DNA from: Candidatus Poseidoniaceae archaeon
GTDB lineage: Archaea; Thermoplasmatota; Poseidoniia; Poseidoniales; Poseidoniaceae
Assembly (NCBI GenBank): GCA_016777125.1
Contig: JADHSC010000005.1
Location: 6,345 to 70,344, forward strand
Length of the DNA stretch: 64,000 nt
Direction of reading: 5' to 3'
In this document: positions 14,203-26,104 of the stretch, piece after piece
Numbering within the stretch: position 1 is the stretch's first letter
How the letters are laid out: every line of letters starts with the position of its first letter
Position numbers and translations under genes: made by a program
The notes under the pieces: model-generated
Database searches by the model: none
What the model was told of the DNA's origin: nothing
What the model saw: the letters and a program-made list of their open reading frames with translations, nothing else

Positions 14203-17112
14203 TTGATAGGTCAACACCTCCCCGTAAATAGGAGAGGGATTTTCTTGAGCAGAACATCTGGCAGCAAACACCTTGCGATTTTGTTTATTTCGCTCATGGT
14301 AATCTCCATGATGCCCCTATCAGTCCCTACCGTTTCTGCGGATGAAGGGAGGGATGCGAACATTCGCCTGACAGTTAATCCATCCGAACAAAATATCAAT
14401 CCTGGAGAATCTGGGGAATACACAGTTCGAGTTTACAATGATGGATCGACTCCAGTAACAATTCAATTGAGTACAGCGGAAGAAGGAACTCAAGAATGTG
14501 GGGCATACACCTCATCCATTACCCAAATCAGTGGCGCAATTGAATCAGGTTCCTATGAAGAAGCGACCATGACTGTTACACTAACGGTCAATGCAGAATC
14601 ATCTTGCGACACGACCGTTTCAGCGACTGCAACAGAATCTCCAGATCCTCCAGAAATACCAGGACAACCTGTCACTAAAACTTCAACAGTGACGACAACC
14701 GCTGGCGATGGATCTGGCAACGCACTTTTCGGAGTTGATTTGTCAATGGTCGTTTCGAGTAAGACATGGGGCGGTGAAGAGACGACAGAATGGACTCTCG
14801 TTGTTGAAAACACCGGCCAACAACAAACAGATGTCAATCTCGTAGTCGATGAGGTTACAGATGGTGCTTGTTCAAACCCAGGCAGTCTTACGCCATCGCT
14901 ATCGGAAACATCGGTCTCACTTGGTGCAAACGAAACAGAAGATGTCATTGTTTCTCTTGACATAGATAACGAAGAAGAAGCCGATAAGTATTGCTGGGAG
15001 ATTACTGGAACAGTCTCTTCTGACCCGACAGGCAATTCTTCTGATACTCAAGAATTTGATATTACAGTCCCCGTTTTGAAGGAATGTGATTTAACTCTCT
15101 CAAAATCAACATTGAGCATCGAGCCTGATGCTGATGCTACACTAAAGGCCATATTTACAAACGAAGGTAACTCTGATTGGACTATTCAAGCTGCTGCTGC
15201 AGGTCCAAAGGCTGGATGGGTTGCATTTGTTGGCGGCACCAGTGGGCTACTGCCATATAGTGGTGGAAGCGGAACCAAGGAATTCAATCTCAAAGTCACT
15301 CCAGATGACTCCGTTATAGCCGGAGAAGAGCAAACCATAACCATCCAAGGGAAAGATGGAACCGCCGTAAAATGCAGTTCAGAACTGACAATCGTCGTAG
15401 GACAGTCCTATGGTGCAACGATTTCAATGACATCCTCCCAACTTAACAACATAGAACCAGGTACGAGTGCGACAACATCTGTCACAGTTGAAAATACAGG
15501 CAATGGTGTTGATAACTTCAGAATTACACCTTCTTCTCTACCAGCGGGATGGAGTGTTGAACTCGATCAGAACGTTATTTCACTCGATTCAAAGCATACG
15601 CCTCAGAGGAAAGACACGGTCGATGTCACCGTCTCTCTACCAACAGATGCGTTAGCGACTGAGGTCGTGAACATCGTACTTTCAGTCTCGCCTTCATCAG
15701 GTGGTCAAGCCTACGATGAAGTGACTCTTGCAGTCTCTGTTGCAGCTGTTCATGAGTTTGAGGCAATATCGACAGCAATGACGCAAACTGGTAAGAATAA
15801 TAATGAGGTCAAATTCCCATTTGAAATCGATAACATTGGAAACGTGGAAGATAGTTTCAGACTAAGCGTTATCAGCCAAACGGCCACTCCAGGATGGTCT
15901 TTTTACTTCGAGGATGCTGCAGGTAATCGATTTACTGAAATCGCAGTCGATGCTCGTACCTCCAAGCAAATTTTCTGTGTTGTTACAGTTACAGATTCCG
16001 ATGAATATACTACTTTGACCATCAGAGTTACCAACAAAGGTGATTCCAATAGCATTGATGAAGATTCGGACGGTATTCCAGACAATCAACGTGAGTTGAA
16101 ATTCACAGCTTTCCTAACGACCCGGGACTATGCAATGGATGTTCGTCTTGAAAATGGTGGGCTTGATGGAAGAACTGGCGAATTAATTCTCGCTCCAGGT
16201 GATGATGAAACAATCGGTCTCTGGCTGAGGAATATGGGTAATGGTGATGACATTGCAATGATTGAACTCACAGGTCTTACAGGCATAGCCACACGAACAG
16301 TATATTCAACTGGCTTGCCCATTGGTGACGAATTAGCCATTCCGTTCGGGTATGGGATCTGGGATGAGAACAACAGCCGTTTCGTTACCGATGCATCGGG
16401 AGCTCCGTATCTTGAAAATACAGCAAATGCTGCAGAAGAGGAAATGTACTTCACACTTAATCTCAGTCAAGGCCATAGCGTCAAGCCTTATGAGATGTAT
16501 CTCGAACTCAAAATCGATGTTAATGAAGCGACTTTGACTGGTGAGGGAGGCAATCTCAACATCGTTGTTACAAGTAAATCTAACGCTGCAAACCGTAGTG
16601 GGACGGCAACAGTTTCCCTGAGTGTCAAAGAGATTTTCAATCTTCAAATCCTCCAACCTACTCAAGATTCGTTCGAAATAACATACCCTGAGCCTTTGAA
16701 GTTTGATGTTCAAATTCGTAATGATGGAAATGTTCGGACAATGACTGAAATCTTTTCTTCAGACAATCTTCGTGGTTGGATGGTCACCCTAGAGGAACCT
16801 GTTAACGATAATGACTGTGAATTGATAGAGGTTAACCGTCTTGAATGTTGGATTGATCAAGGCGAAACCAAGAATGTTACTGTAATTGTCAAATCACCTT
16901 ACGATGCAGAATTCAAAGATACGTTTGATTTCACCATCTCTGCCCAACCCGAGGAAATTGGAGTTATCGGGCGTACGAACCAACAATTCGATGTCACAGG
17001 TGACGTTGAATCATCGCTCTTCGGATTTGCAGAGGATGCCACAGTTGCTGTGGTTGGTGGTGGGTTCATCTGCCTCATTCTTCTCGGATTCATTATTAGC
17101 CGCCGTAGTTGA
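14203..17112 (+). CDS. secreted surface protein with CARDB-like repeats and a C-terminal TM anchor (PGF-CTERM-like variant)
   Basis: Signal peptide LAILFISLMVISMMPLSVPTVSA-DEG. Repeated NPGESGEYTVRVYNDG-type modules. C-terminus GGGFICLILLGFIISRRS*. TTG start preceded by AGGAAAGGA. Confidence 0.65.
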   Translation: MIGQHLPVNRRGIFLSRTSGSKHLAILFISLMVISMMPLSVPTVSADEGRDANIRLTVNPSEQNINPGESGEYTVRVYNDGSTPVTIQLSTAEEGTQECGAYTSSITQISGAIESGSYEEATMTVTLTVNAESSCDTTVSATATESPDPPEIPGQPVTKTSTVTTTAGDGSGNALFGVDLSMVVSSKTWGGEETTEWTLVVENTGQQQTDVNLVVDEVTDGACSNPGSLTPSLSETSVSLGANETEDVIVSLDIDNEEEADKYCWEITGTVSSDPTGNSSDTQEFDITVPVLKECDLTLSKSTLSIEPDADATLKAIFTNEGNSDWTIQAAAAGPKAGWVAFVGGTSGLLPYSGGSGTKEFNLKVTPDDSVIAGEEQTITIQGKDGTAVKCSSELTIVVGQSYGATISMTSSQLNNIEPGTSATTSVTVENTGNGVDNFRITPSSLPAGWSVELDQNVISLDSKHTPQRKDTVDVTVSLPTDALATEVVNIVLSVSPSSGGQAYDEVTLAVSVAAVHEFEAISTAMTQTGKNNNEVKFPFEIDNIGNVEDSFRLSVISQTATPGWSFYFEDAAGNRFTEIAVDARTSKQIFCVVTVTDSDEYTTLTIRVTNKGDSNSIDEDSDGIPDNQRELKFTAFLTTRDYAMDVRLENGGLDGRTGELILAPGDDETIGLWLRNMGNGDDIAMIELTGLTGIATRTVYSTGLPIGDELAIPFGYGIWDENNSRFVTDASGAPYLENTANAAEEEMYFTLNLSQGHSVKPYEMYLELKIDVNEATLTGEGGNLNIVVTSKSNAANRSGTATVSLSVKEIFNLQILQPTQDSFEITYPEPLKFDVQIRNDGNVRTMTEIFSSDNLRGWMVTLEEPVNDNDCELIEVNRLECWIDQGETKNVTVIVKSPYDAEFKDTFDFTISAQPEEIGVIGRTNQQFDVTGDVESSLFGFAEDATVAVVGGGFICLILLGFIISRRS

Positions 17113-17240
17113 AGTACGGATTTTGGCATTTTGGAACCCCTCCATCAAGCACTGTTTTACGCGTGGTTGACTGGGAACGCTTATGGAGGGTATTCAAGTC
17201 GGATTATTTAGAGAGCGCATGCTTTCTGAGGCGATGTATA

Positions 17241-17708
17241 ATGGTCGATGCAGGTTCGGTTCCAAGCGCCTATCTTTCAATTGCTTTCCTTACCGTGGTT
17301 GGCATCCTTATGCCGATGACGAATTTCATCATGTCATGGGCTCTTCGTCCACGTACAGATCCTTCCCGACCGCACATCACCAGGTCCTATCTTCTCGAAG
17401 GATATGAGCGAGACCACAGCCTCTATCCTCGTCGTCTTTCAACATTCGAGTGTGGAAGCGAACCTATCGGCGATGCAATGATTCAGTTTCACTTCCAATA
17501 CTACTGGTATGCGATTGTATTCCTTGTATTCGATGTAGCATTCATGTTCCTTGTTCTAGGCGGTATGGTTACCGCCCAAGAAACATCAACTGTTGATGGA
17601 GATATCGCAAATGCTGAGGCTGGACTTGCAGTCCTCGGAGCCTTCTTTGCGATCATGTCACTCGGCGTTTGGTATGTATTCCGCAAGCGAGGACGAATTT
17701 ACATCTGA
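17241..17708 (+). CDS. nuoA: NADH-quinone oxidoreductase subunit A
   Basis: Conserved FECG..P.G and FLVFDVAFMFL motifs with TM helices. The in-frame upstream extension from 17109 is not NuoA-like, so ATG 17241 is chosen. Confidence 0.7.
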   Translation: MVDAGSVPSAYLSIAFLTVVGILMPMTNFIMSWALRPRTDPSRPHITRSYLLEGYERDHSLYPRRLSTFECGSEPIGDAMIQFHFQYYWYAIVFLVFDVAFMFLVLGGMVTAQETSTVDGDIANAEAGLAVLGAFFAIMSLGVWYVFRKRGRIYI

Positions 17709-20121: not shown

Positions 20122-21633
20122 ATGGATGACAAGTACGACCTGAGAAGTTTGTTCATTGGCGAGGACAGTCTCGTTCATGATTTGGTTACCTCTGGACTTG
20201 AGGGAACACCTCTTGAAGACAGTTCCTCAAACATTGCGTTCGGCCTCGGTACGTTTGCAGTGGTCAACATTGTGTTCTTACTCCTCTTCTTTTCCCAATT
20301 CGCAATCCTATGGATTGAGAGAAAAGCCGTTGCTCGTATGAATGATCGTCGCGGTGCAACCACTGCACTTCGTTCTCTCTGGGTCGGAGAAAACGGTGTA
20401 ACTGGAGGAGAATGGTGGAACATGCTTCCATTCGGTCTCGGACGTCCAGTTGGCGCAGTCAACAAATGGTTGAACCAGCGCTTTGGTAATCGTTCTGAAG
20501 AATTCGAAACAGTTGACCGTGTCAACAATCGTTCGTGGATGGGATTGAGTATTCTCCCTGGATTCTTCCAAAACGTTGCTGATGGAATGAAATTCCTCAT
20601 CAAAGAACACATGGTTCCACGTCGGGCTGACAAACTCATTTTCGAGGTTTCACCGTTCCTCATCGTTTCGACGACACTCATCATCCTTGGTATGATTCCA
20701 CTTTCCAGTGGCATATATGCAACCAACCCTGACCTTTCTATTCTCTACATCATCGCTATCTTTGGAATCGCTCCAATCGGTGTCTTCTTTGCTGGCTGGG
20801 CTTCAAACAACAAGTACACACTCATCGGTGGTATTCGTTCAGCAGCACAACTTACTGCATATGAGATTCCATTGCTGTTATCATTACTTGCAGTTGCAAT
20901 GTTGAGCGGAACGTTCAACATTATTGACAGCGTTCACTTCCAACATACTGCTGGTGCATGGAATCTCTTTTTGATGCCACTGGGAGCAGCACTGTTCCTT
21001 ATCACAATGATTGCAGAAGTAGAACGTGTTCCATTCGATATGCCAGAAGCTGAAGCTGAACTGGTCGAAGGATGGTGGACAGAATACGGTGGTATGCGAT
21101 TTGGTATGCTGTTCATGGCAGAATACATCCGCACCTATGCTGCATGTTTCCTCTTCACTCACTTCTTCCTTGGTGGATGGCACCTTCCATTCCAAGGAAC
21201 AATTGGTCAAATTCCATACTTAGGAGATGCGTACCTGTTGATTCCTGGTGCGTTGGTTGTTCTGATCAAGGCGTGGCTTGTTTTCCTCATCGTCTTCGTA
21301 TGGGCTCGATTCTCTCTTGCACGTATCCGTACTGACCAAATCCTTGAATTCGGTTGGAGAATGCTCCTACCTCTTGCAGTTTTGCAAGTTGTTCTCGCAG
21401 CATTGTACCGATTGTACCTCTTCGATGTTGAAGGAATGTCAGACACCGTTGCTGGTGGAACTGCATGGGAAGCCTTTGGAATCCCATTCCTCATCCCAGC
21501 ACTAACCACTATCCTTTGGTTGGCTATCTTTTTCCTATTGCTCAATGATACGGGCAAGAATGAACACGAAGAACGTATGTATCACGTTCAGACAGTGCAG
21601 CCCGCTGGTACCCATACTCCTGGGCAGGACTGA
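20122..21633 (+). CDS. nuoH: NADH-quinone oxidoreductase subunit H (with insertions)
   Basis: The ILWIERKAVARMNDRRG region corresponds to the NuoH ERK..G..Q.R.GP motif. Eight or more TM helices. About 150 aa longer than typical NuoH. Confidence 0.8.
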   Translation: MDDKYDLRSLFIGEDSLVHDLVTSGLEGTPLEDSSSNIAFGLGTFAVVNIVFLLLFFSQFAILWIERKAVARMNDRRGATTALRSLWVGENGVTGGEWWNMLPFGLGRPVGAVNKWLNQRFGNRSEEFETVDRVNNRSWMGLSILPGFFQNVADGMKFLIKEHMVPRRADKLIFEVSPFLIVSTTLIILGMIPLSSGIYATNPDLSILYIIAIFGIAPIGVFFAGWASNNKYTLIGGIRSAAQLTAYEIPLLLSLLAVAMLSGTFNIIDSVHFQHTAGAWNLFLMPLGAALFLITMIAEVERVPFDMPEAEAELVEGWWTEYGGMRFGMLFMAEYIRTYAACFLFTHFFLGGWHLPFQGTIGQIPYLGDAYLLIPGALVVLIKAWLVFLIVFVWARFSLARIRTDQILEFGWRMLLPLAVLQVVLAALYRLYLFDVEGMSDTVAGGTAWEAFGIPFLIPALTTILWLAIFFLLLNDTGKNEHEERMYHVQTVQPAGTHTPGQD

Positions 21634-21644
21634 GGTGATTGAAT

Positions 21645-23006
21645 ATGCCAACACACCCTCAAGCAAAACCGAACTTCCGAAATCTCTTCTGGTATCCGTT
21701 TAAGATTACTCTGATTACTGCCTTGAGAACATTCCCTCTCATGGGTAAATTGTTTCCAAAGAAATTGGGTATGGGCTATCACAATACAACCCATCCAGAG
21801 TTTTTGGATGAAGCGAGTGCACAACGTGCAAAGAGTCGTTCACAATACAATGACATCACCAATCAAGAATTTGCTCCTGACCGAGTTACATCCGATCTCT
21901 TCCCGACACTTTGGAAGCCTCAAACAGTTCAGTACCCGTACGAACGCCTTGAGGACATGGAGCCTTGGCTCTTCGTTCCAGGTAATTACAATGGCCGTAT
22001 TGGTGTCATTTGGGAAACCTGTACTGCATGTAAGATGTGTGTGAACATCTGTCCAAACGACTGTCTTCACATGACAACAGAACTTCGTGTTGACGTTCTC
22101 GACAACGCAGAAGGTGAATACGATGGATACGGTGCTGAATTGGAAGTTGGCGGCTATGCTGCTAAGTTCCGTGAAGAAGTTGTAGAAGAACTCGAATCAT
22201 TCGATCTCATCACTGCTCACACGGCACCTCCTGCAGAATGGCGCTTTGGACAAGTCCTAGATCTGAGTGGCAGCACTGCTACTGTTCGCTGGAATGACTC
22301 TGGCCAAGAAGAAATGATTGAGCAATCTGATTTACGAACTGCTGATAATCAAATCGTATCAGGTCGTATTGACATTGGACGATGTATGTTCTGTGGTCTC
22401 TGCATGGAAGCATGTGGTTTCACTTCATTCTTCATGACCAACGAATACGATGGAATGTCAGGCTTCTCTCGACAAGACCTTTGGTTTGATGCAAGCAGAA
22501 CACGTGTTCTTCCTTCCGTTCATCAAGAAGCTGTTGACGGAGAACTTGCAAAGCGTGCTACAAAGGAACGAGATAAGCGTGCAAAGAAGGCTGCTAAGGC
22601 TGCAAAAGCCGCTGTACCCGAAGTAGTGGTCGTAGAACCACCTCAAGTTGTCGAAGTAAAGGCCGAAGTCAAGGCTGAGACTGAAGACGACAAGCCCATG
22701 AGTAAAGAGGAAAAGAAAGCAGCCGATTTGCAACGAGTCAAGGAACGGTCAAAAAACATTGATTTCAATATTCTCGGAACGGCTAGTGCTGAAGAAAAAG
22801 ATGACCTTCAAAGCATCAAGGGCATCGGGCCGTTTATCGAAGAGAAATTAAACGCTCTCGGCATCTATACGTTCTCACAAGTCAGTAAAATGACCAGTGA
22901 GTTAGAAGATCAAGTCAACGAAGCCATCGAATTCTTCCCTGGTCGTGTCAAGCGGGACGAATGGACCAATCAAGCCAGCGACCTGCTCGAGAAGGGGGAT
23001 GCCTGA
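21645..23006 (+). CDS. nuoI: NADH-quinone oxidoreductase subunit I (2x[4Fe-4S]) with a ~290-aa extension: Lys/Ala/Glu-rich linker plus C-terminal helix-hairpin-helix module
   Basis: Ferredoxin motifs CTACKMCVNICPNDC and CMFCGLCMEACG. C-terminal KRAKKAAKAAKAA...LQSIKGIGPFIEEKLNALGIYTFSQV. ATG lies 5 nt after GAGGTGAT. Confidence 0.8.
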   Translation: MPTHPQAKPNFRNLFWYPFKITLITALRTFPLMGKLFPKKLGMGYHNTTHPEFLDEASAQRAKSRSQYNDITNQEFAPDRVTSDLFPTLWKPQTVQYPYERLEDMEPWLFVPGNYNGRIGVIWETCTACKMCVNICPNDCLHMTTELRVDVLDNAEGEYDGYGAELEVGGYAAKFREEVVEELESFDLITAHTAPPAEWRFGQVLDLSGSTATVRWNDSGQEEMIEQSDLRTADNQIVSGRIDIGRCMFCGLCMEACGFTSFFMTNEYDGMSGFSRQDLWFDASRTRVLPSVHQEAVDGELAKRATKERDKRAKKAAKAAKAAVPEVVVVEPPQVVEVKAEVKAETEDDKPMSKEEKKAADLQRVKERSKNIDFNILGTASAEEKDDLQSIKGIGPFIEEKLNALGIYTFSQVSKMTSELEDQVNEAIEFFPGRVKRDEWTNQASDLLEKGDA

Positions 23007-23008
23007 AA

Positions 23009-23283
23009 TGGACGTCGCCTCGGCCACTGAAACCATCATCTTCTTCATTTTTGCAACGATTACTATTCTCGGTGCATTGGGGCTCATTTACGCACAACGA
23101 GTTGCTCATTCGATGCTTTCTCTGATTTTCTGTTTCATGGCAGTTTCAGGAATCTTCATCCTTATGGGTGCTGAATTCCTTGCAGCAATTCAAATTCTCG
23201 TTTATCTAGCGAGTGTAGGATTGGTGGTTCTCTTCGGTATTATGCTGACTCGACGCCAAATTCAGGAGGAGGATTTCGAATGA
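23009..23283 (+). CDS. nuoJ1: NADH-quinone oxidoreductase subunit J, part 1
   Basis: 91-aa protein with two TM helices, immediately after nuoI. The split J1/J2 arrangement is typical of Halobacteria. Confidence 0.65.
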
Positions 23284-23549
23284 GATTAATGTCAACACTA
23301 ACTCGACTTGGACTGATTCTTCTAGCTGGTGCAATGATCTCAGTGTTGGGGACTTCCACAGTTTGGGATACTGATTCTTCAGAAGAAATCACAACAAATG
23401 ATCTTGCGAATACAATGCTCGATGATTGGGCACTTCCTCTCTTGATTCTTGGTATCCTTATGGCAATGGCCATGATGGGTGCTGCTTACCTCGTTCGTGA
23501 TGAACGTCGTGAAAACCTTGAGTGGGAACAGAGAGGTGAAGACGTATGA
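23280..23549 (+). CDS. nuoJ2: NADH-quinone oxidoreductase subunit J, part 2
   Basis: ATGA overlap with nuoJ1. 89-aa protein with two TM helices. Confidence 0.6.
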   Translation: MRLMSTLTRLGLILLAGAMISVLGTSTVWDTDSSEEITTNDLANTMLDDWALPLLILGILMAMAMMGAAYLVRDERRENLEWEQRGEDV

Positions 23550-23857: not shown

Positions 23858-26104
23858 ATGGGAACAACAACAGACATACCAGAAATCACATCTTCCTTTA
23901 CGGAATATGCCATCTTCATCGTTCTTTTACCGATGCTTGCATTCCCAGTCATTCTCTTCCTTGGACGATTGTTCAATGGAAACGAAACCTGGGTTAAGTC
24001 TGCAAAAGAAGGTGGACTCATCGCTCTACCAATTATGGTTGCAAGTTTCATTCTTTCATTAATTCTCATTGTCGAATTTATCGGAAGTGGAACGGGCTCA
24101 TACTACATTGGTGATTGGCTTAGTTTCGGATGGATTGGAGCAGATGGAATGACCATCGAGGAGGAGGTCTTTGGTGTCGGAATTTACATCGATCACGTTA
24201 CAGTGATGCTCTTATTCGTCGCATCATTCCTCTGTATGCTCATCAATATCTTCAGTATTGGATACATGAATACAGATCCAGTAAACGACAACAGAAACCA
24301 TCGTTTCTATGCTGAATTCGTTCTTTTCTGTTCAGGTATGCTCGGAATGGTTCTTGCTGACTCCTTCCTTTGGTTGTTTATCTTCTGGGAATTAATGGGT
24401 CTATGTTCCTATCTTCTCATTGGATTTTACTACGAACGACCAAGTGCAGCTTATGCTGCAAAGAAAGCATTTCTTACAACCCGTGTTGGTGACGTTTTCC
24501 TCGTCATTGGATTGGTTATGCTTTGGAATATGTTTGGCTCCCTTGACTACTCAGTCGTCTTCAACCCCGATAACATTGCAGCAGTTGATGCAGGCGAATT
24601 ACAAATGGCGCTTGGAATGATGTTCATTGGTGCAGTTGGTAAATCTGCTCAATTCCCACTCCACGTTTGGCTTCCAGACGCAATGGAAGGGCCAACACCC
24701 GTTTCCGCTCTTATTCACGCTGCAACCATGGTCAACGCAGGATTGTATCTCGTTGCCCGTATGTTCCCATTCTTTGGAGCCCCTGCAATGGCCGGCGAAC
24801 TGGTTGATCTTGCATTCATCATCGCAGCAATCGGTGGAATTACCGCCGTCATGGCTGCTGCAATCGCCTTTGTTCAAGATGATTTGAAGAAAGTACTCGC
24901 ATATTCTACGATGAGTCAACTCGCATACATCTTCACAGGACTTGGTGCAGCGTTATGGCTCGCTAACACACCAGGAATGGAAAAGTACGCAATCGTCGCC
25001 TTTGGTGCAGCTCTGTTCCACCTCTTTAACCACGCAATGGCAAAAGGGATGCTGTTCATGGCAAGCGGTTCAGTCATTCACGAAATGCATCATGCACATC
25101 ATGACGTCCACCATCACGACGACCATGGAGATGACCACGGAGACGACCACAATGACGATCACCACGATGAATTCGATGCTCAATCGATGTCAAATATGGG
25201 CGGTCTTGCATCCAAGATGCCAATTACTGCTACAGCAATGCTTGTAGGTTCAGCTTCAATCATGGGTCTACCACTGATTGGTGGATTCTGGTCCAAAGAA
25301 GGTATCATCGCCAACGCTTGGAGAGTTGCCCTTGAAGATCCGCGATTCTTCCTACCTGCTTTCTGTGTTCTTCTTGGTGCAGCAATGACTGGTTTCTATA
25401 TGTCGAGAATGTGGCTCAAGACCTTTGCAGGAAAGCCAAAGACAGAAGTTGCAGAACATGTCCATGAACAAACACCATGGATTCCTATTCCTTTGGTTAC
25501 ATTGACATTCGTCACGCTCTCAAGCGTCATTCTTGCGGGAATGATGTTTACACATTGGTCAAGTGATAGTGGGTATGCATTCTTCAGTGAGAAGGGATTG
25601 ATCGATGGTCTGATTTACGAATTTGAACACGTCTTCCTCAATTCTGATGCGTTCTACTTCGTACTGACCTATGTTGCAATCTTCATCGGAGCCATCGTTG
25701 GACCTGGTCTTGCAATGGCATTGTATGGTGGAGCACTCAAAGATGGTGAGAAAGCCAAGGGATGGATGCAACCGATCATCAATCTCTCTGCTCGTGTAAA
25801 CGAGAAGCGTGGTTTCGACAACAGCGCTTGGGCTGATTCAAGCCTATCAGTTGCCCTCAAGGAACGACTCTACTTCGACAAATGGTACGATACTGCAATG
25901 CTCAAACTCGTTGCAGGATTTGCTGTTCTCAGCGCAACCTTCGATCGTAAGGTCATCGATGGAACAATCAAGACCATCGAACGTTCTTCACAGAAGATTT
26001 CACTCAGCGTTCGTAAACTTACAACAGGGTCTGCTCGTGATTACATCATGATGGCGGCATTAGGTGTCCTTGTCATCTATGCAATGCTGGAGGTGATGAT
26101 TTGA
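23858..26104 (+). CDS. nuoL: NADH-quinone oxidoreductase subunit L (antiporter-like), with His/Asp-rich loop insertion
   Basis: 748-aa polytopic protein with conserved Mrp-antiporter-like regions (WLPDAMEGPTPVSALIHAATMV). TGAGGTGAT RBS. Insertion HEMHHAHHDVHHHDDHGDDHGDDHNDDHHDEF. Confidence 0.9.
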   Translation: MGTTTDIPEITSSFTEYAIFIVLLPMLAFPVILFLGRLFNGNETWVKSAKEGGLIALPIMVASFILSLILIVEFIGSGTGSYYIGDWLSFGWIGADGMTIEEEVFGVGIYIDHVTVMLLFVASFLCMLINIFSIGYMNTDPVNDNRNHRFYAEFVLFCSGMLGMVLADSFLWLFIFWELMGLCSYLLIGFYYERPSAAYAAKKAFLTTRVGDVFLVIGLVMLWNMFGSLDYSVVFNPDNIAAVDAGELQMALGMMFIGAVGKSAQFPLHVWLPDAMEGPTPVSALIHAATMVNAGLYLVARMFPFFGAPAMAGELVDLAFIIAAIGGITAVMAAAIAFVQDDLKKVLAYSTMSQLAYIFTGLGAALWLANTPGMEKYAIVAFGAALFHLFNHAMAKGMLFMASGSVIHEMHHAHHDVHHHDDHGDDHGDDHNDDHHDEFDAQSMSNMGGLASKMPITATAMLVGSASIMGLPLIGGFWSKEGIIANAWRVALEDPRFFLPAFCVLLGAAMTGFYMSRMWLKTFAGKPKTEVAEHVHEQTPWIPIPLVTLTFVTLSSVILAGMMFTHWSSDSGYAFFSEKGLIDGLIYEFEHVFLNSDAFYFVLTYVAIFIGAIVGPGLAMALYGGALKDGEKAKGWMQPIINLSARVNEKRGFDNSAWADSSLSVALKERLYFDKWYDTAMLKLVAGFAVLSATFDRKVIDGTIKTIERSSQKISLSVRKLTTGSARDYIMMAALGVLVIYAMLEVMI

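What the first reader, a model, noticed from the sequence alone, without database searches (positions are those of the whole stretch)
22480..23006. NuoI fused to a Lys/Ala/Glu-rich linker and a helix-hairpin-helix module
Canonical NuoI is about 150-180 aa. This one is 453 aa, with an insertion between the two 4Fe-4S motifs and a C-terminal extension of about 170 aa. The extension runs KRAKKAAKAAKAA...(E/K/V-rich)...LQSIKGIGPFIEEKLNALGIYTFSQV. The last segment is a textbook HhH GIG motif, normally associated with nucleic-acid or protein docking. An HhH on a complex-I peripheral-arm subunit is unexpected.
Basis: seen in the sequence. Interest (0 to 1): 0.5.

Follow-up and report, generated by a model that had tools for sequence, protein, structure and literature searches.

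The report
Archaeal NuoI carrying a DNA-tether-type HhH module
A marine archaeon's respiratory complex I subunit NuoI really does carry, on a floppy linker, a small helix-hairpin-helix domain; the only tested relative of that domain ties storage granules to the chromosome in a bacterium, so this enzyme may be physically tethered to DNA.

Summary
Window 21645-23006 (+) is one 453-aa nuoI ORF between nuoH and nuoJ. It has a 90-aa insert between the two 4Fe-4S motifs and a C-terminal tail that ends in a GIGP hairpin. The taxon is wrong: this is Poseidoniaceae (Marine Group II archaea), not Halobacteria.

The Lys/Ala helix is shared by all Poseidoniales NuoI. The lineage-specific part is a discrete in-frame cassette (22613-22997): a low-complexity linker plus a ~110-aa module. 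It is not a frameshift artefact. 31 of 80 species-level genomes carry it in one ORF, with dN/dS about 0.035.

The module is a known but poorly characterised (HhH)2 domain (COG3743). It matches the tails of alphaproteobacterial 'fused NuoE/endonuclease', Urf1/protein-O, bL21, uS2 and Caulobacter PhaH. The PhaH copy is reported to bind DNA non-specifically. It contains no nuclease domain.

In Poseidoniales the module is a promiscuous cytoplasmic tag. It sits on giant adhesin tails, Lon, L21e and, in two species, NuoJ2.

Best reading (about 0.45): a flexible nucleoid or nucleic-acid tether. Main rival: a NusA-AR-like acidic protein-docking domain. Verdict: new variant of a known kind, moderately interesting.

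The parts
21645..23006 (+). nuoI, 453 codons plus stop. It has a Shine-Dalgarno-like GAGGTGA upstream, and its stop overlaps the nuoJ1 start (ATGCCTGA).
   Evidence: the operon neighbours were identified by Pfam
21645..21908 (+). N-terminal extension (res 1-88). It contains a predicted hydrophobic/amphipathic helix at res 11-29 and is shared by Poseidoniales NuoI.
   Evidence: alignment; AF2 secondary structure; no Pfam hit
22020..22055 (+). First 4Fe-4S motif, CTACKMCVNICP (res 126-137).
   Evidence: invariant
22083..22352 (+). Acidic insert between the two cluster motifs (res 147-236, net charge -15). It is predicted to be a small SH3/Tudor/KOW-like beta-barrel and is present in all Poseidoniales NuoI.
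   Evidence: AF2 pLDDT 75-92 for res 160-236; weak Foldseek hits to NdhO, KOW, Tudor and SH3
22383..22415 (+). Second 4Fe-4S motif, CMFCGLCMEAC (res 247-257).
   Evidence: invariant
22542..22613 (+). Basic Lys/Ala helix ELAKRATKERDKRAKKAAKAAKAA (res 300-323; the 299-322 segment has net charge +7). It is common to short and long NuoI forms, so it is not part of the acquired cassette.
   Evidence: long helix 290-323 in the AF2 model
22613..22997 (+). The cassette (linker plus module, about 128 codons). It is absent, in frame, from near-identical nuoI genes of sister species (L040, L041).
   Evidence: nucleotide alignment; presence/absence pattern
22611..22670 (+). Low-complexity Glu/Val/Pro/Ala linker (res 323-342). 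It varies in length and is poorly conserved among long forms.
   Evidence: aa identity 0.50 against 0.89 for the module; pLDDT below 50
22671..22784 (+). Lys/Glu-rich pre-helix of the module (res 343-380), with conserved SKEEKK...RVKERSK.IDF..LGTA.
   Evidence: helix 12-29 of the module model
22785..23003 (+). Globular (HhH)2-type domain (res 381-453, pI 4.3). It has hairpin 1 IKGIGP (22815-22832) and hairpin 2 plus motif FFPGRVKRDEW..QA (GRVKRDEW at 22941-22964).

Best explanation
In a subset of Poseidoniaceae (Marine Group II archaea), nuoI has acquired a cassette just before its last codons. The cassette encodes a disordered acidic linker, a Lys/Glu-rich helix and one compact five-helix (HhH)2 domain.

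The Fe-S core, the beta-barrel insert and the basic Lys/Ala helix do the ordinary NuoI job in an 11-subunit complex I that lacks NuoEFG. The appended domain takes no part in electron transfer and is not a nuclease.

The domain belongs to the COG3743 family. This family is also found on alphaproteobacterial NuoE, Urf1/protein-O, bL21, uS2 and Caulobacter PhaH.

By homology with PhaH, whose copy is reported to bind DNA non-specifically and to tether PHB granules to the nucleoid, the most likely role is a flexible tether. The two glycine hairpins with their conserved Lys/Arg (IKGxGP, GRVKRD) would grip the phosphate backbone of nucleoid DNA, or another nucleic acid. That would link the cytoplasmic arm of complex I, and so the membrane, to the chromosome.

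In Poseidoniales the same tag sits on the cytoplasmic ends of many membrane-anchored proteins and on NuoJ2. This suggests a general membrane-to-nucleoid, or common-platform, docking system.

Shown here: the fusion is real and under purifying selection, the domain family, the fold class, the cytoplasmic location, the promiscuity, and the gain/loss pattern.
Inferred: DNA binding and the tethering role.
For: The fusion is real:
- It is a single ORF.
- The same architecture and operon position occur in independent assemblies and in 31 of 80 GTDB species representatives.
- Module dN/dS is 0.035, equal to the Fe-S core at 0.037, with saturated dS.

It is domain accretion, not a fusion of neighbouring genes:
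- Short-form loci go straight from nuoI to nuoJ1.
- The in-frame indel has clean boundaries.

Domain identity:
- The globular 73 aa alone hit NF009040 NuoE tail (E 3.6e-18), the S2 and L21 tails (about 1e-13) and PhaH NF045508 (5.7e-8).
- They also hit PDB chains 8yy9_O and 9wqv_a, which are Urf1 proteins (E about 1e-12).
- NCBI names the bacterial relatives 'fused NuoE/endonuclease'.

Functional precedent: the C-terminal HhH domain of PhaH binds DNA non-specifically and positions PHB granules on the nucleoid (review PMC13052382; PMC12678847).

Cytoplasmic location: K+R counts are 9 before and 64 after the TM helix in 23 membrane proteins that carry the module.

Recurrent link to complex I: NuoJ2-module fusions in L083 and L087, plus bacterial NuoE and Urf1.

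Other contexts consistent with DNA binding: a SAP domain follows the module in P0209, and tandem arrays reach 25 copies. The arrays recall the HhH arrays of topoisomerase V, which is a comparison from my own knowledge.
Against: - The globular domain is strongly acidic (net -8, pI 4.3). That is unusual for a non-specific DNA binder.
- Its best structural matches are the NusA acidic repeats, which bind proteins rather than DNA.
- DNA binding by PhaH is known to me only from a review. The primary paper was not available. PhaH is also a distant relative (E 5.7e-8).
- In both RC-LH1 cryo-EM studies the homologous domain of Urf1 was invisible, and the authors called its function unknown.
- The cassette is present or absent among near-identical NuoI genes, with at least 11 changes on a rough tree. 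Whatever it does is therefore dispensable for complex I itself.
- No experiment exists for any archaeal copy.
Confidence: 0.45

Rival explanations
1. The module is a protein-protein docking or clustering tag. It would be an acidic (HhH)2/SAM-like module, like NusA AR1/AR2. It would bind a shared basic protein partner or self-associate, and so co-localise complex I, adhesin tails, Lon and ribosomes at a common cytoplasmic platform. DNA would not be involved.
For: - The domain has net charge -8 and pI 4.3.
- The architecture looks multivalent: 1-4 copies on many unrelated client proteins and 17-25 copies on giant proteins.
- A basic K/A helix lies immediately upstream in NuoI.
Against: - The only homologue with a reported activity, PhaH, binds DNA.
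- The conserved basic residues are concentrated exactly in the two hairpins (K390, R434, K436, R437), as in DNA-binding (HhH)2 domains.
- No candidate partner has been identified.
Confidence: 0.3
2. The cassette is a nearly neutral passenger. It would be a mobile, promiscuous domain that spreads by recombination among Poseidoniaceae genes and landed at the 3' end of nuoI with little functional consequence.
For: - Long and short alleles are interleaved on the NuoI-core tree, with at least 11 changes.
- L040 and L041 are 94% identical in nucleotide sequence but lack exactly the cassette.
- The module is attached to many unrelated proteins.
Against: - Purifying selection on the module is as strong as on the Fe-S core (dN/dS 0.035 against 0.037).
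- It is retained across NuoI lineages that are only 72-98% identical.
- It has been fused independently to another complex I subunit, NuoJ2, and to NuoE and Urf1 in bacteria.
Confidence: 0.12
3. The fusion is an assembly or sequencing artefact, meaning a frameshift that merges nuoI with an independent small downstream ORF.
For: Two database gene calls look like split pieces: P0131 (126 aa) and P0012 (311 aa).
Against: - P0131 comes from a scaffold with an N-run and deletions in several genes.
- P0012 is simply cut off at the start of its contig.
- 31 independent species-level assemblies and many metagenomes keep one ORF.
- Short-form loci have no separate module gene.
Confidence: 0.01
4. The module is a real FEN-1-like 5' nuclease, as the COG3743 and NCBI 'endonuclease' names suggest.
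For: The evidence consists of annotation names only.
Against: - The conserved unit is about 70 aa and consists only of HhH helices.
- No PIN or nuclease catalytic domain was hit in Pfam or NCBIfam.
Confidence: 0.02

Closest known systems
Caulobacter crescentus phasin PhaH (NCBIfam NF045508; Salinas et al. 2023, cited in PMC13052382 and PMC12678847)
   Same: It has a C-terminal HhH domain homologous to window res 384-447 (E 5.7e-8, model positions 169-231 of 234). The domain is attached by a linker to an unrelated N-terminal functional part. It is reported to bind DNA non-specifically and to tether a cytoplasmic body to the nucleoid.
   Different: It is bacterial. The cargo is a PHB granule, not a membrane respiratory complex. 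Sequence similarity is modest. No data exist for the archaeal copy.
Alphaproteobacterial 'fused NADH-quinone oxidoreductase subunit E/endonuclease' (NF009040 / PRK12373)
   Same: The same (HhH)2 domain sits at the C-terminus of a complex I peripheral-arm Fe-S subunit, behind a low-complexity linker. It is the best-scoring curated match (E 3.6e-18; names).
   Different: The subunit is different: NuoE of the NADH-oxidising N-module, which this archaeal complex lacks entirely. The domain of life is different. The fusion event is independent.
Urf1 / protein-O (D. shibae, PDB 8YY9/8YZ2) / protein-3h (Rdv. sulfidophilum, PDB 9WQV)
   Same: Its C-terminal compact domain is about 45-50% identical to window res ~380-451 in the HMMER alignments shown (E about 1e-12). 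The gene lies between nuoE and nuoF. The domain hangs on a long flexible linker from a membrane anchor.
   Different: It is a stand-alone small membrane protein that was found in RC-LH1 photocomplexes. Its HhH domain is unresolved or cleaved in the cryo-EM maps, and the authors state that its function is unknown.
bL21 and uS2 'unknown domain fusion' proteins of Alphaproteobacteria (PRK12278, PRK12311)
   Same: They carry the same C-terminal domain (E about 1e-13). This parallels the archaeal L21e-module fusion P0171.
   Different: The cargo is the ribosome, and the function is uncharacterised.
NusA acidic repeats AR1/AR2
   Different: Sequence identity is only 12-23% and there is no sequence-level family match. 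NusA AR binds proteins (lambda N, the RNAP alpha-CTD), not DNA.
Histone-H1-like Lys/Ala/Pro tails of PhaM, PhaF and AlgP
   Same: These are basic Lys/Ala-rich C-terminal segments used as non-specific DNA tethers. They resemble the KRAKKAAKAAKAA helix.
   Different: The NuoI K/A segment is a single predicted helix of about 24 residues. It is present in all Poseidoniales NuoI, including forms without the HhH module. No homology has been shown.

Membership tests
NuoI / Nqo9 (complex I 2x[4Fe-4S] subunit) | Two CxxCxxCxxxC(P) ferredoxin-type motifs | tested here: met
   C126-C136-P137 and C247-C257. Pfam Fer4 families score above their cut-offs. The motifs are invariant in homologues.
NuoI / Nqo9 (complex I 2x[4Fe-4S] subunit) | Gene position between nuoH and nuoJ in a nuo operon | tested here: met
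   nuoA-B-C-D-H-I-J1-J2-K-L-M-N, established by Pfam. The same order is seen in L009-L012.
NuoI / Nqo9 (complex I 2x[4Fe-4S] subunit) | Score above the curated NuoI model cut-off (TIGR01971, 113 bits) | tested here: not met
   The score is 65.3 bits, E 3.5e-18. The match is split into two stretches by the 90-aa insert. The protein is clearly homologous but divergent, so the cut-off failure reflects the insert.
COG3743 / PhaH-type (HhH)2 tail domain ('fused NuoE/endonuclease' tail) | Sequence match of the globular domain, not merely of the low-complexity linker | tested here: met
   The 73 aa alone give NF009040 E 3.6e-18 (model positions 320-387 of 400), S2 and L21 tails at about 1e-13, and PhaH at 5.7e-8. 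PDB chains 8yy9_O and 9wqv_a match at E about 1e-12.
COG3743 / PhaH-type (HhH)2 tail domain ('fused NuoE/endonuclease' tail) | Signature D-L-x2-I-K-G-x-G-P ... F-x-G-R-x2-R-D-x-W-x2-Q-A | tested here: met
   The signature is present at res 385-396 and 430-443. It is invariant in 44 archaeal copies and is shared with the two bacterial Urf1 chains (alignment).
COG3743 / PhaH-type (HhH)2 tail domain ('fused NuoE/endonuclease' tail) | Five-helix (HhH)2 fold | tested here: met
COG3743 / PhaH-type (HhH)2 tail domain ('fused NuoE/endonuclease' tail) | Non-specific DNA binding, or nucleoid tethering | not testable with these tools
   This is reported only for PhaH, in the literature. The net charge of -8 in the window copy is a caveat.
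FEN-1-like 5' nuclease (the name that annotation gives to COG3743) | PIN-like catalytic nuclease domain | tested here: not met
   No nuclease family was hit in Pfam or NCBIfam. The unit is about 70 aa of HhH helices only.
Pfam HHH_5 / Cdd1 / DUF4332 | Score above the gathering threshold | tested here: not met
   HHH_5 scores 16.2 bits against a threshold of 27. Cdd1 scores 17.9 against 25.5. DUF4332 gives no hit. Multi-copy relatives do pass, so the single copy is simply too short or too divergent for these models.
   All named close homologues and 80 of 80 genome loci are Poseidoniales/Poseidoniaceae MAGs, apart from two evidently mis-binned contigs. GC content is about 46%.

The most novel reading that the evidence does not exclude
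Poseidoniales, and convergently Alphaproteobacteria, may use one small (HhH)2 domain as a universal cytoplasmic address tag. The tag would physically couple the chromosome, or another shared cytoplasmic scaffold, to a defined set of machines.

Those machines are complex I (through NuoI or NuoJ2 in archaea, and NuoE or Urf1 in bacteria), the cytoplasmic tails of giant surface adhesins, Lon protease, ribosomal proteins and storage granules. Giant proteins with 17-25 copies would act as multivalent scaffolds.

Complex I would then be a positioned component of a nucleoid-membrane tether network that has not been described in archaea, rather than a freely diffusing one.
Probability: 0.25. Interest if true: 0.75.

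Novelty: new variant of a known kind. Interest (0 to 1): 0.5.

Why it matters
Complex I subunits are among the most conserved proteins known, so accessory domains on them are rare and informative. The same small HhH domain has been recruited independently onto NuoI and NuoJ2 in marine archaea, and onto NuoE and Urf1 in Alphaproteobacteria. Two recent cryo-EM papers state that its function is unknown.

- The homology link to PhaH, a reported DNA tether.
- The finding that in Poseidoniales the domain is a general cytoplasmic tag on membrane-anchored proteins.
- The presence/absence polymorphism between near-identical nuoI alleles, which is a natural experiment.

Poseidoniales are uncultured and among the most abundant planktonic archaea, so any insight into their cell organisation is new. 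The finding does not change our view of complex I catalysis.

Tried and rejected
1. Frameshift or assembly artefact. Rejected. The apparent split calls P0131 and P0012 come from an N-containing scaffold and a contig edge.
2. Fusion of nuoI with a neighbouring small gene. Rejected. Short-form operons have no gene between nuoI and nuoJ1.
3. Halobacterial origin. Rejected.
4. Real nuclease. Rejected for lack of any catalytic domain.
5. Low-complexity bias as the cause of the family hits. Rejected after re-running the globular 73 aa alone.
6. Other copies of the module in the 64-kb window. None found.
7. Pfam on the module, the insert and the N-extension gave only sub-threshold or no hits.
8. Rfam on the window gave nothing.
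10. The full-length AF2 model was poor (pLDDT 55.7), including the Fe-S core. It could not show whether the module packs on the core.
11. Literature searches found no paper on this fusion. The searches covered Poseidoniales complex I, 'unknown domain fusion protein'/DUF4332, and the NuoE C-terminal extension.
12. The primary PhaH paper (doi 10.1111/mmi.15124) is not held, so the DNA-binding claim rests on a review.
13. Stand-alone tandem-module genes were examined for linkage to nuo. There is none. They sit next to giant He_PIG/TSP3 surface-protein genes.
Full report
**1. The observation**

Window 21639(TTG)/21645(ATG)-23006 (+) is one uninterrupted ORF. It is 453 aa from the ATG, which lies 7 nt behind a GAGGTGA Shine-Dalgarno-like sequence. 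Pfam identifies its neighbours as nuoA, B, C, D and H upstream, and nuoJ (split into J1 and J2), K, L, M and N downstream. There is no nuoEFG.

The protein has the two ferredoxin-type motifs: C126-x2-C-x2-C-x3-C-P and C247-x2-C-x2-C-x3-C. NuoI models match it in two separate stretches around an insert at about res 147-236.

So the description is correct.

The taxon is not. All named close homologues and all 80 related genome loci are Poseidoniales/Poseidoniaceae (Marine Group II archaea) MAGs, and GC content is about 46%.

**2. What is lineage-specific**

Most Poseidoniales NuoI proteins are 317-335 aa. They already have the N-terminal extension, the insert and the basic helix ELAKRAxKERDKRAKKAAKAAKAA, and they stop right after that helix.

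Long forms add three things:
- a poorly conserved, length-variable low-complexity linker;
- a conserved Lys/Glu-rich helix (SKEEKK..RVKERSK.IDF..LGTA);
- a highly conserved ~70-aa globular end.

A nucleotide alignment with two sister-species genes (L040 and L041, 94% nt identity) shows that they lack exactly window 22613-22997. This is an in-frame block of about 128 codons. It starts at the end of the K/A helix and stops two to three codons before the stop codon that overlaps the nuoJ1 start.

**3. Not an artefact, not a neighbour fusion**

Long-form genes with the same operon position occur in independent assemblies. They also occur in 31 of 80 GTDB species-representative loci. Another 45 loci are short and 4 are cut by contig ends.

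Against a 75%-identical orthologue, the globular module has 89% aa identity and dN/dS 0.035. The second Fe-S region has dN/dS 0.037. The linker is only 50% identical.

Two database gene calls looked like split pieces. One comes from a scaffold with an N-run and deletions, and the other from a contig edge. Short-form operons have no gene between nuoI and nuoJ1. The event was therefore domain accretion, not read-through into a neighbouring gene.

**4. What the module is**

Pfam gives only sub-threshold HHH_5 and Cdd1 hits.

NCBIfam matches the globular 73 aa alone to several C-terminal tails:
- alphaproteobacterial NuoE (NF009040, E 3.6e-18);
- uS2 and bL21 'fusion' proteins (about 1e-13);
- Caulobacter phasin PhaH (NF045508, E 5.7e-8).

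This excludes low-complexity bias as the cause. JGI calls the domain COG3743, 'predicted flap endonuclease-1-like 5' DNA nuclease'. NCBI names the bacterial relatives 'fused NADH-quinone oxidoreductase subunit E/endonuclease'.

A PDB sequence search hits chain O of the Dinoroseobacter shibae RC-LH1 (8YY9) and chain a of the Rhodovulum sulfidophilum LH1-RC (9WQV), both at E about 1e-12. Both chains are Urf1, which is encoded between nuoE and nuoF. In both papers the C-terminal compact domain is invisible or cleaved in the map, and its function is called unknown (PMC12079452 and PMC13066640).

- AF1548 and mL85;
- RAD51-family N-domains;
- Pol X;

There is no nuclease domain anywhere in the protein. 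The 'endonuclease' label is a naming artefact.

**5. How the module is used elsewhere**

An exhaustive HMMER search found 8,951 cluster representatives at E <= 1e-3 and 1,812 at E <= 1e-10. Single proteins carry up to 25 tandem matched stretches.

Among close (60-80% identical) Poseidoniales-type copies, the module occurs in these contexts:
- as small one- or two-copy proteins;
- after ribosomal protein L21e (P0171);
- after Lon protease (P0150);
- before a SAP domain (P0209);
- after a coiled-coil protein (P0382);
- most often as 2-3 copies at the extreme C-terminus of proteins built as signal peptide, He_PIG/TSP3 ectodomain, strong TM helix and a long tail;
- after a single N-terminal TM anchor.

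In 23 such membrane proteins, K+R counts in the 15 residues flanking the TM helix are 9 on the N-terminal side and 64 on the C-terminal side. By the positive-inside rule, the modules are cytoplasmic. This agrees with the cytoplasmic location of NuoI, L21e and Lon.

Two Poseidoniaceae species with a short NuoI (L083 and L087) carry the same module on the C-terminus of NuoJ2, behind an acidic linker. This is a second, independent attachment to complex I.

On a rough NJ tree of the NuoI core, long and short forms are interleaved. Fitch parsimony gives at least 11 changes. That figure is an indication only. It rests on one short protein, on MAGs, and on possible recombination.

**6. Mechanism**

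The only relative with a reported activity is PhaH. Its N-terminal part binds PHB granules, and its C-terminal HhH domain binds DNA non-specifically and positions the granules on the nucleoid (review PMC13052382; PMC12678847). The primary paper is not held.

By homology, the best-supported reading is that the NuoI module is a flexible nucleic-acid (nucleoid) tether. Its conserved hairpin residues (K390, G392, G394; R434, K436, R437) are where (HhH)2 domains contact the phosphate backbone. That last point is established knowledge of the fold, not something tested here.

This reading also fits several other observations: the SAP co-occurrence, the long tandem arrays, and the module's use on membrane anchors, granules and ribosomes, all of which can plausibly be docked onto a chromosome.

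The main objection is electrostatic. The globular domain has net charge -8 and pI 4.3. Its best structural match is the NusA acidic repeat, which binds proteins. A protein-docking or self-association role is therefore a serious rival.

My estimates are:

| Reading | Confidence |
|---|---|
| Nucleic-acid tether | ~0.45 |
| Protein docking | ~0.30 |
| Near-neutral passenger | ~0.12 |
| Artefact or nuclease | ≤0.03 combined |

Under any of these readings the module is an accessory. It is irrelevant to electron transfer and dispensable for complex I, as the short alleles show.

**7. Comparison with what is known, and novelty**

The domain family is known but poorly characterised. Its fusion to complex I subunit NuoE is already captured by NCBI naming.

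I found no literature description of the following:
- fusion to NuoI, and to NuoJ2, in archaea whose complex I lacks the N-module entirely;
- the cassette-like presence/absence among near-identical alleles;
- the role of the domain as a general cytoplasmic tag on Poseidoniales membrane proteins.

I therefore rate this as a new variant of a known kind, with moderate interest (0.5). It does not alter complex I enzymology. It does give a concrete, testable handle on a domain that two recent structural papers left unexplained, and on cell organisation in an abundant uncultured archaeal order.

Noticed in passing
window 22083-22352 (NuoI res 147-236): The 90-aa acidic insert between the two 4Fe-4S motifs is conserved in all Poseidoniales NuoI. 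It is confidently predicted (pLDDT 75-92) as a small SH3/Tudor/KOW-like beta-barrel. The best Foldseek hit, which is weak (E 5.7e-3), is NdhO of cyanobacterial NDH-1 (6nbq_O). In a complex lacking NuoEFG, the insert might be a built-in donor-docking (ferredoxin?) or NdhO/NdhS-like element.
   Followed up: partly
L083 4258-5052 and L087 4258-5076: In two Poseidoniaceae species with a short NuoI, the second half of the split NuoJ (NuoJ2, 89 aa in the window) is extended by an Asp/Glu-rich linker and the same HhH module. This is an independent fusion of the module to a different complex I subunit.
   Followed up: partly
window 22945-23283 and 23280-23549: nuoJ is split into two overlapping genes. 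J1 matches Oxidored_q3 positions 1-67 and J2 matches positions 82-146. The split is conserved in all related loci examined.
   Followed up: partly
window 23858-26104 (NuoL): NuoL contains a His/Asp-rich insertion (...HEMHHAHHDVHHHDDHGDDHGDDHNDDHHDEF...), which looks like a possible metal-binding loop. Orthologues in L009 and L010 are about 870 aa and have faint EF-hand hits at the equivalent place.
   Followed up: no
window 20122-21633 (NuoH) and 17109-17708 (NuoA): Both subunits have long N-terminal extensions relative to their Pfam domains. The NADHdh domain of NuoH starts at res 147 of 503, and the Oxidored_q4 domain of NuoA starts at res 104 of 199. Almost every subunit of this complex I is decorated.
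   Followed up: no
proteins P0241-P0243, P0248, P0252: Giant proteins (1,300-3,100 aa) carry 8-25 tandem copies of the module at about 30% identity to the window copy. Their origin and function are unknown. They could be multivalent scaffolds.
   Followed up: no
P0253, P0255, P0256, P0260, P0269, P0270, P0272, P0276, P0286, P0287, P0289: These are type I surface proteins built as signal peptide, He_PIG/TSP3 ectodomain, Leu-rich TM helix followed by an R-D-R/GPEPE motif, and a 250-300-aa cytoplasmic tail ending in 2-3 modules. The layout recalls adhesin tails that link to an intracellular structure.
   Followed up: partly
L001 4090-4662; L004 8001-8543; L005 4631-5173: Small two-copy module genes lie immediately downstream of, or overlap, giant He_PIG/TSP3 surface-protein genes. 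Some start with non-ATG codons and overlap the upstream ORF, so some may be mis-called C-termini of the large proteins.
   Followed up: no
L020 (CALDQY010000007.1) and L039 (NZEQ01000031.1): Contigs carrying a typical Poseidoniaceae nuo operon are deposited in MAGs labelled 'Rhodobiaceae bacterium' and 'Verrucomicrobiales bacterium'. These are probably binning contamination.
   Followed up: no
L018 2995-4350; L033 2995-4359: Two long-form nuoI genes in species-representative MAGs are interrupted by a stop or frameshift. In L018 the break is inside the core, and in L033 it is inside the module. They may be sequencing errors or decaying copies.
   Followed up: no
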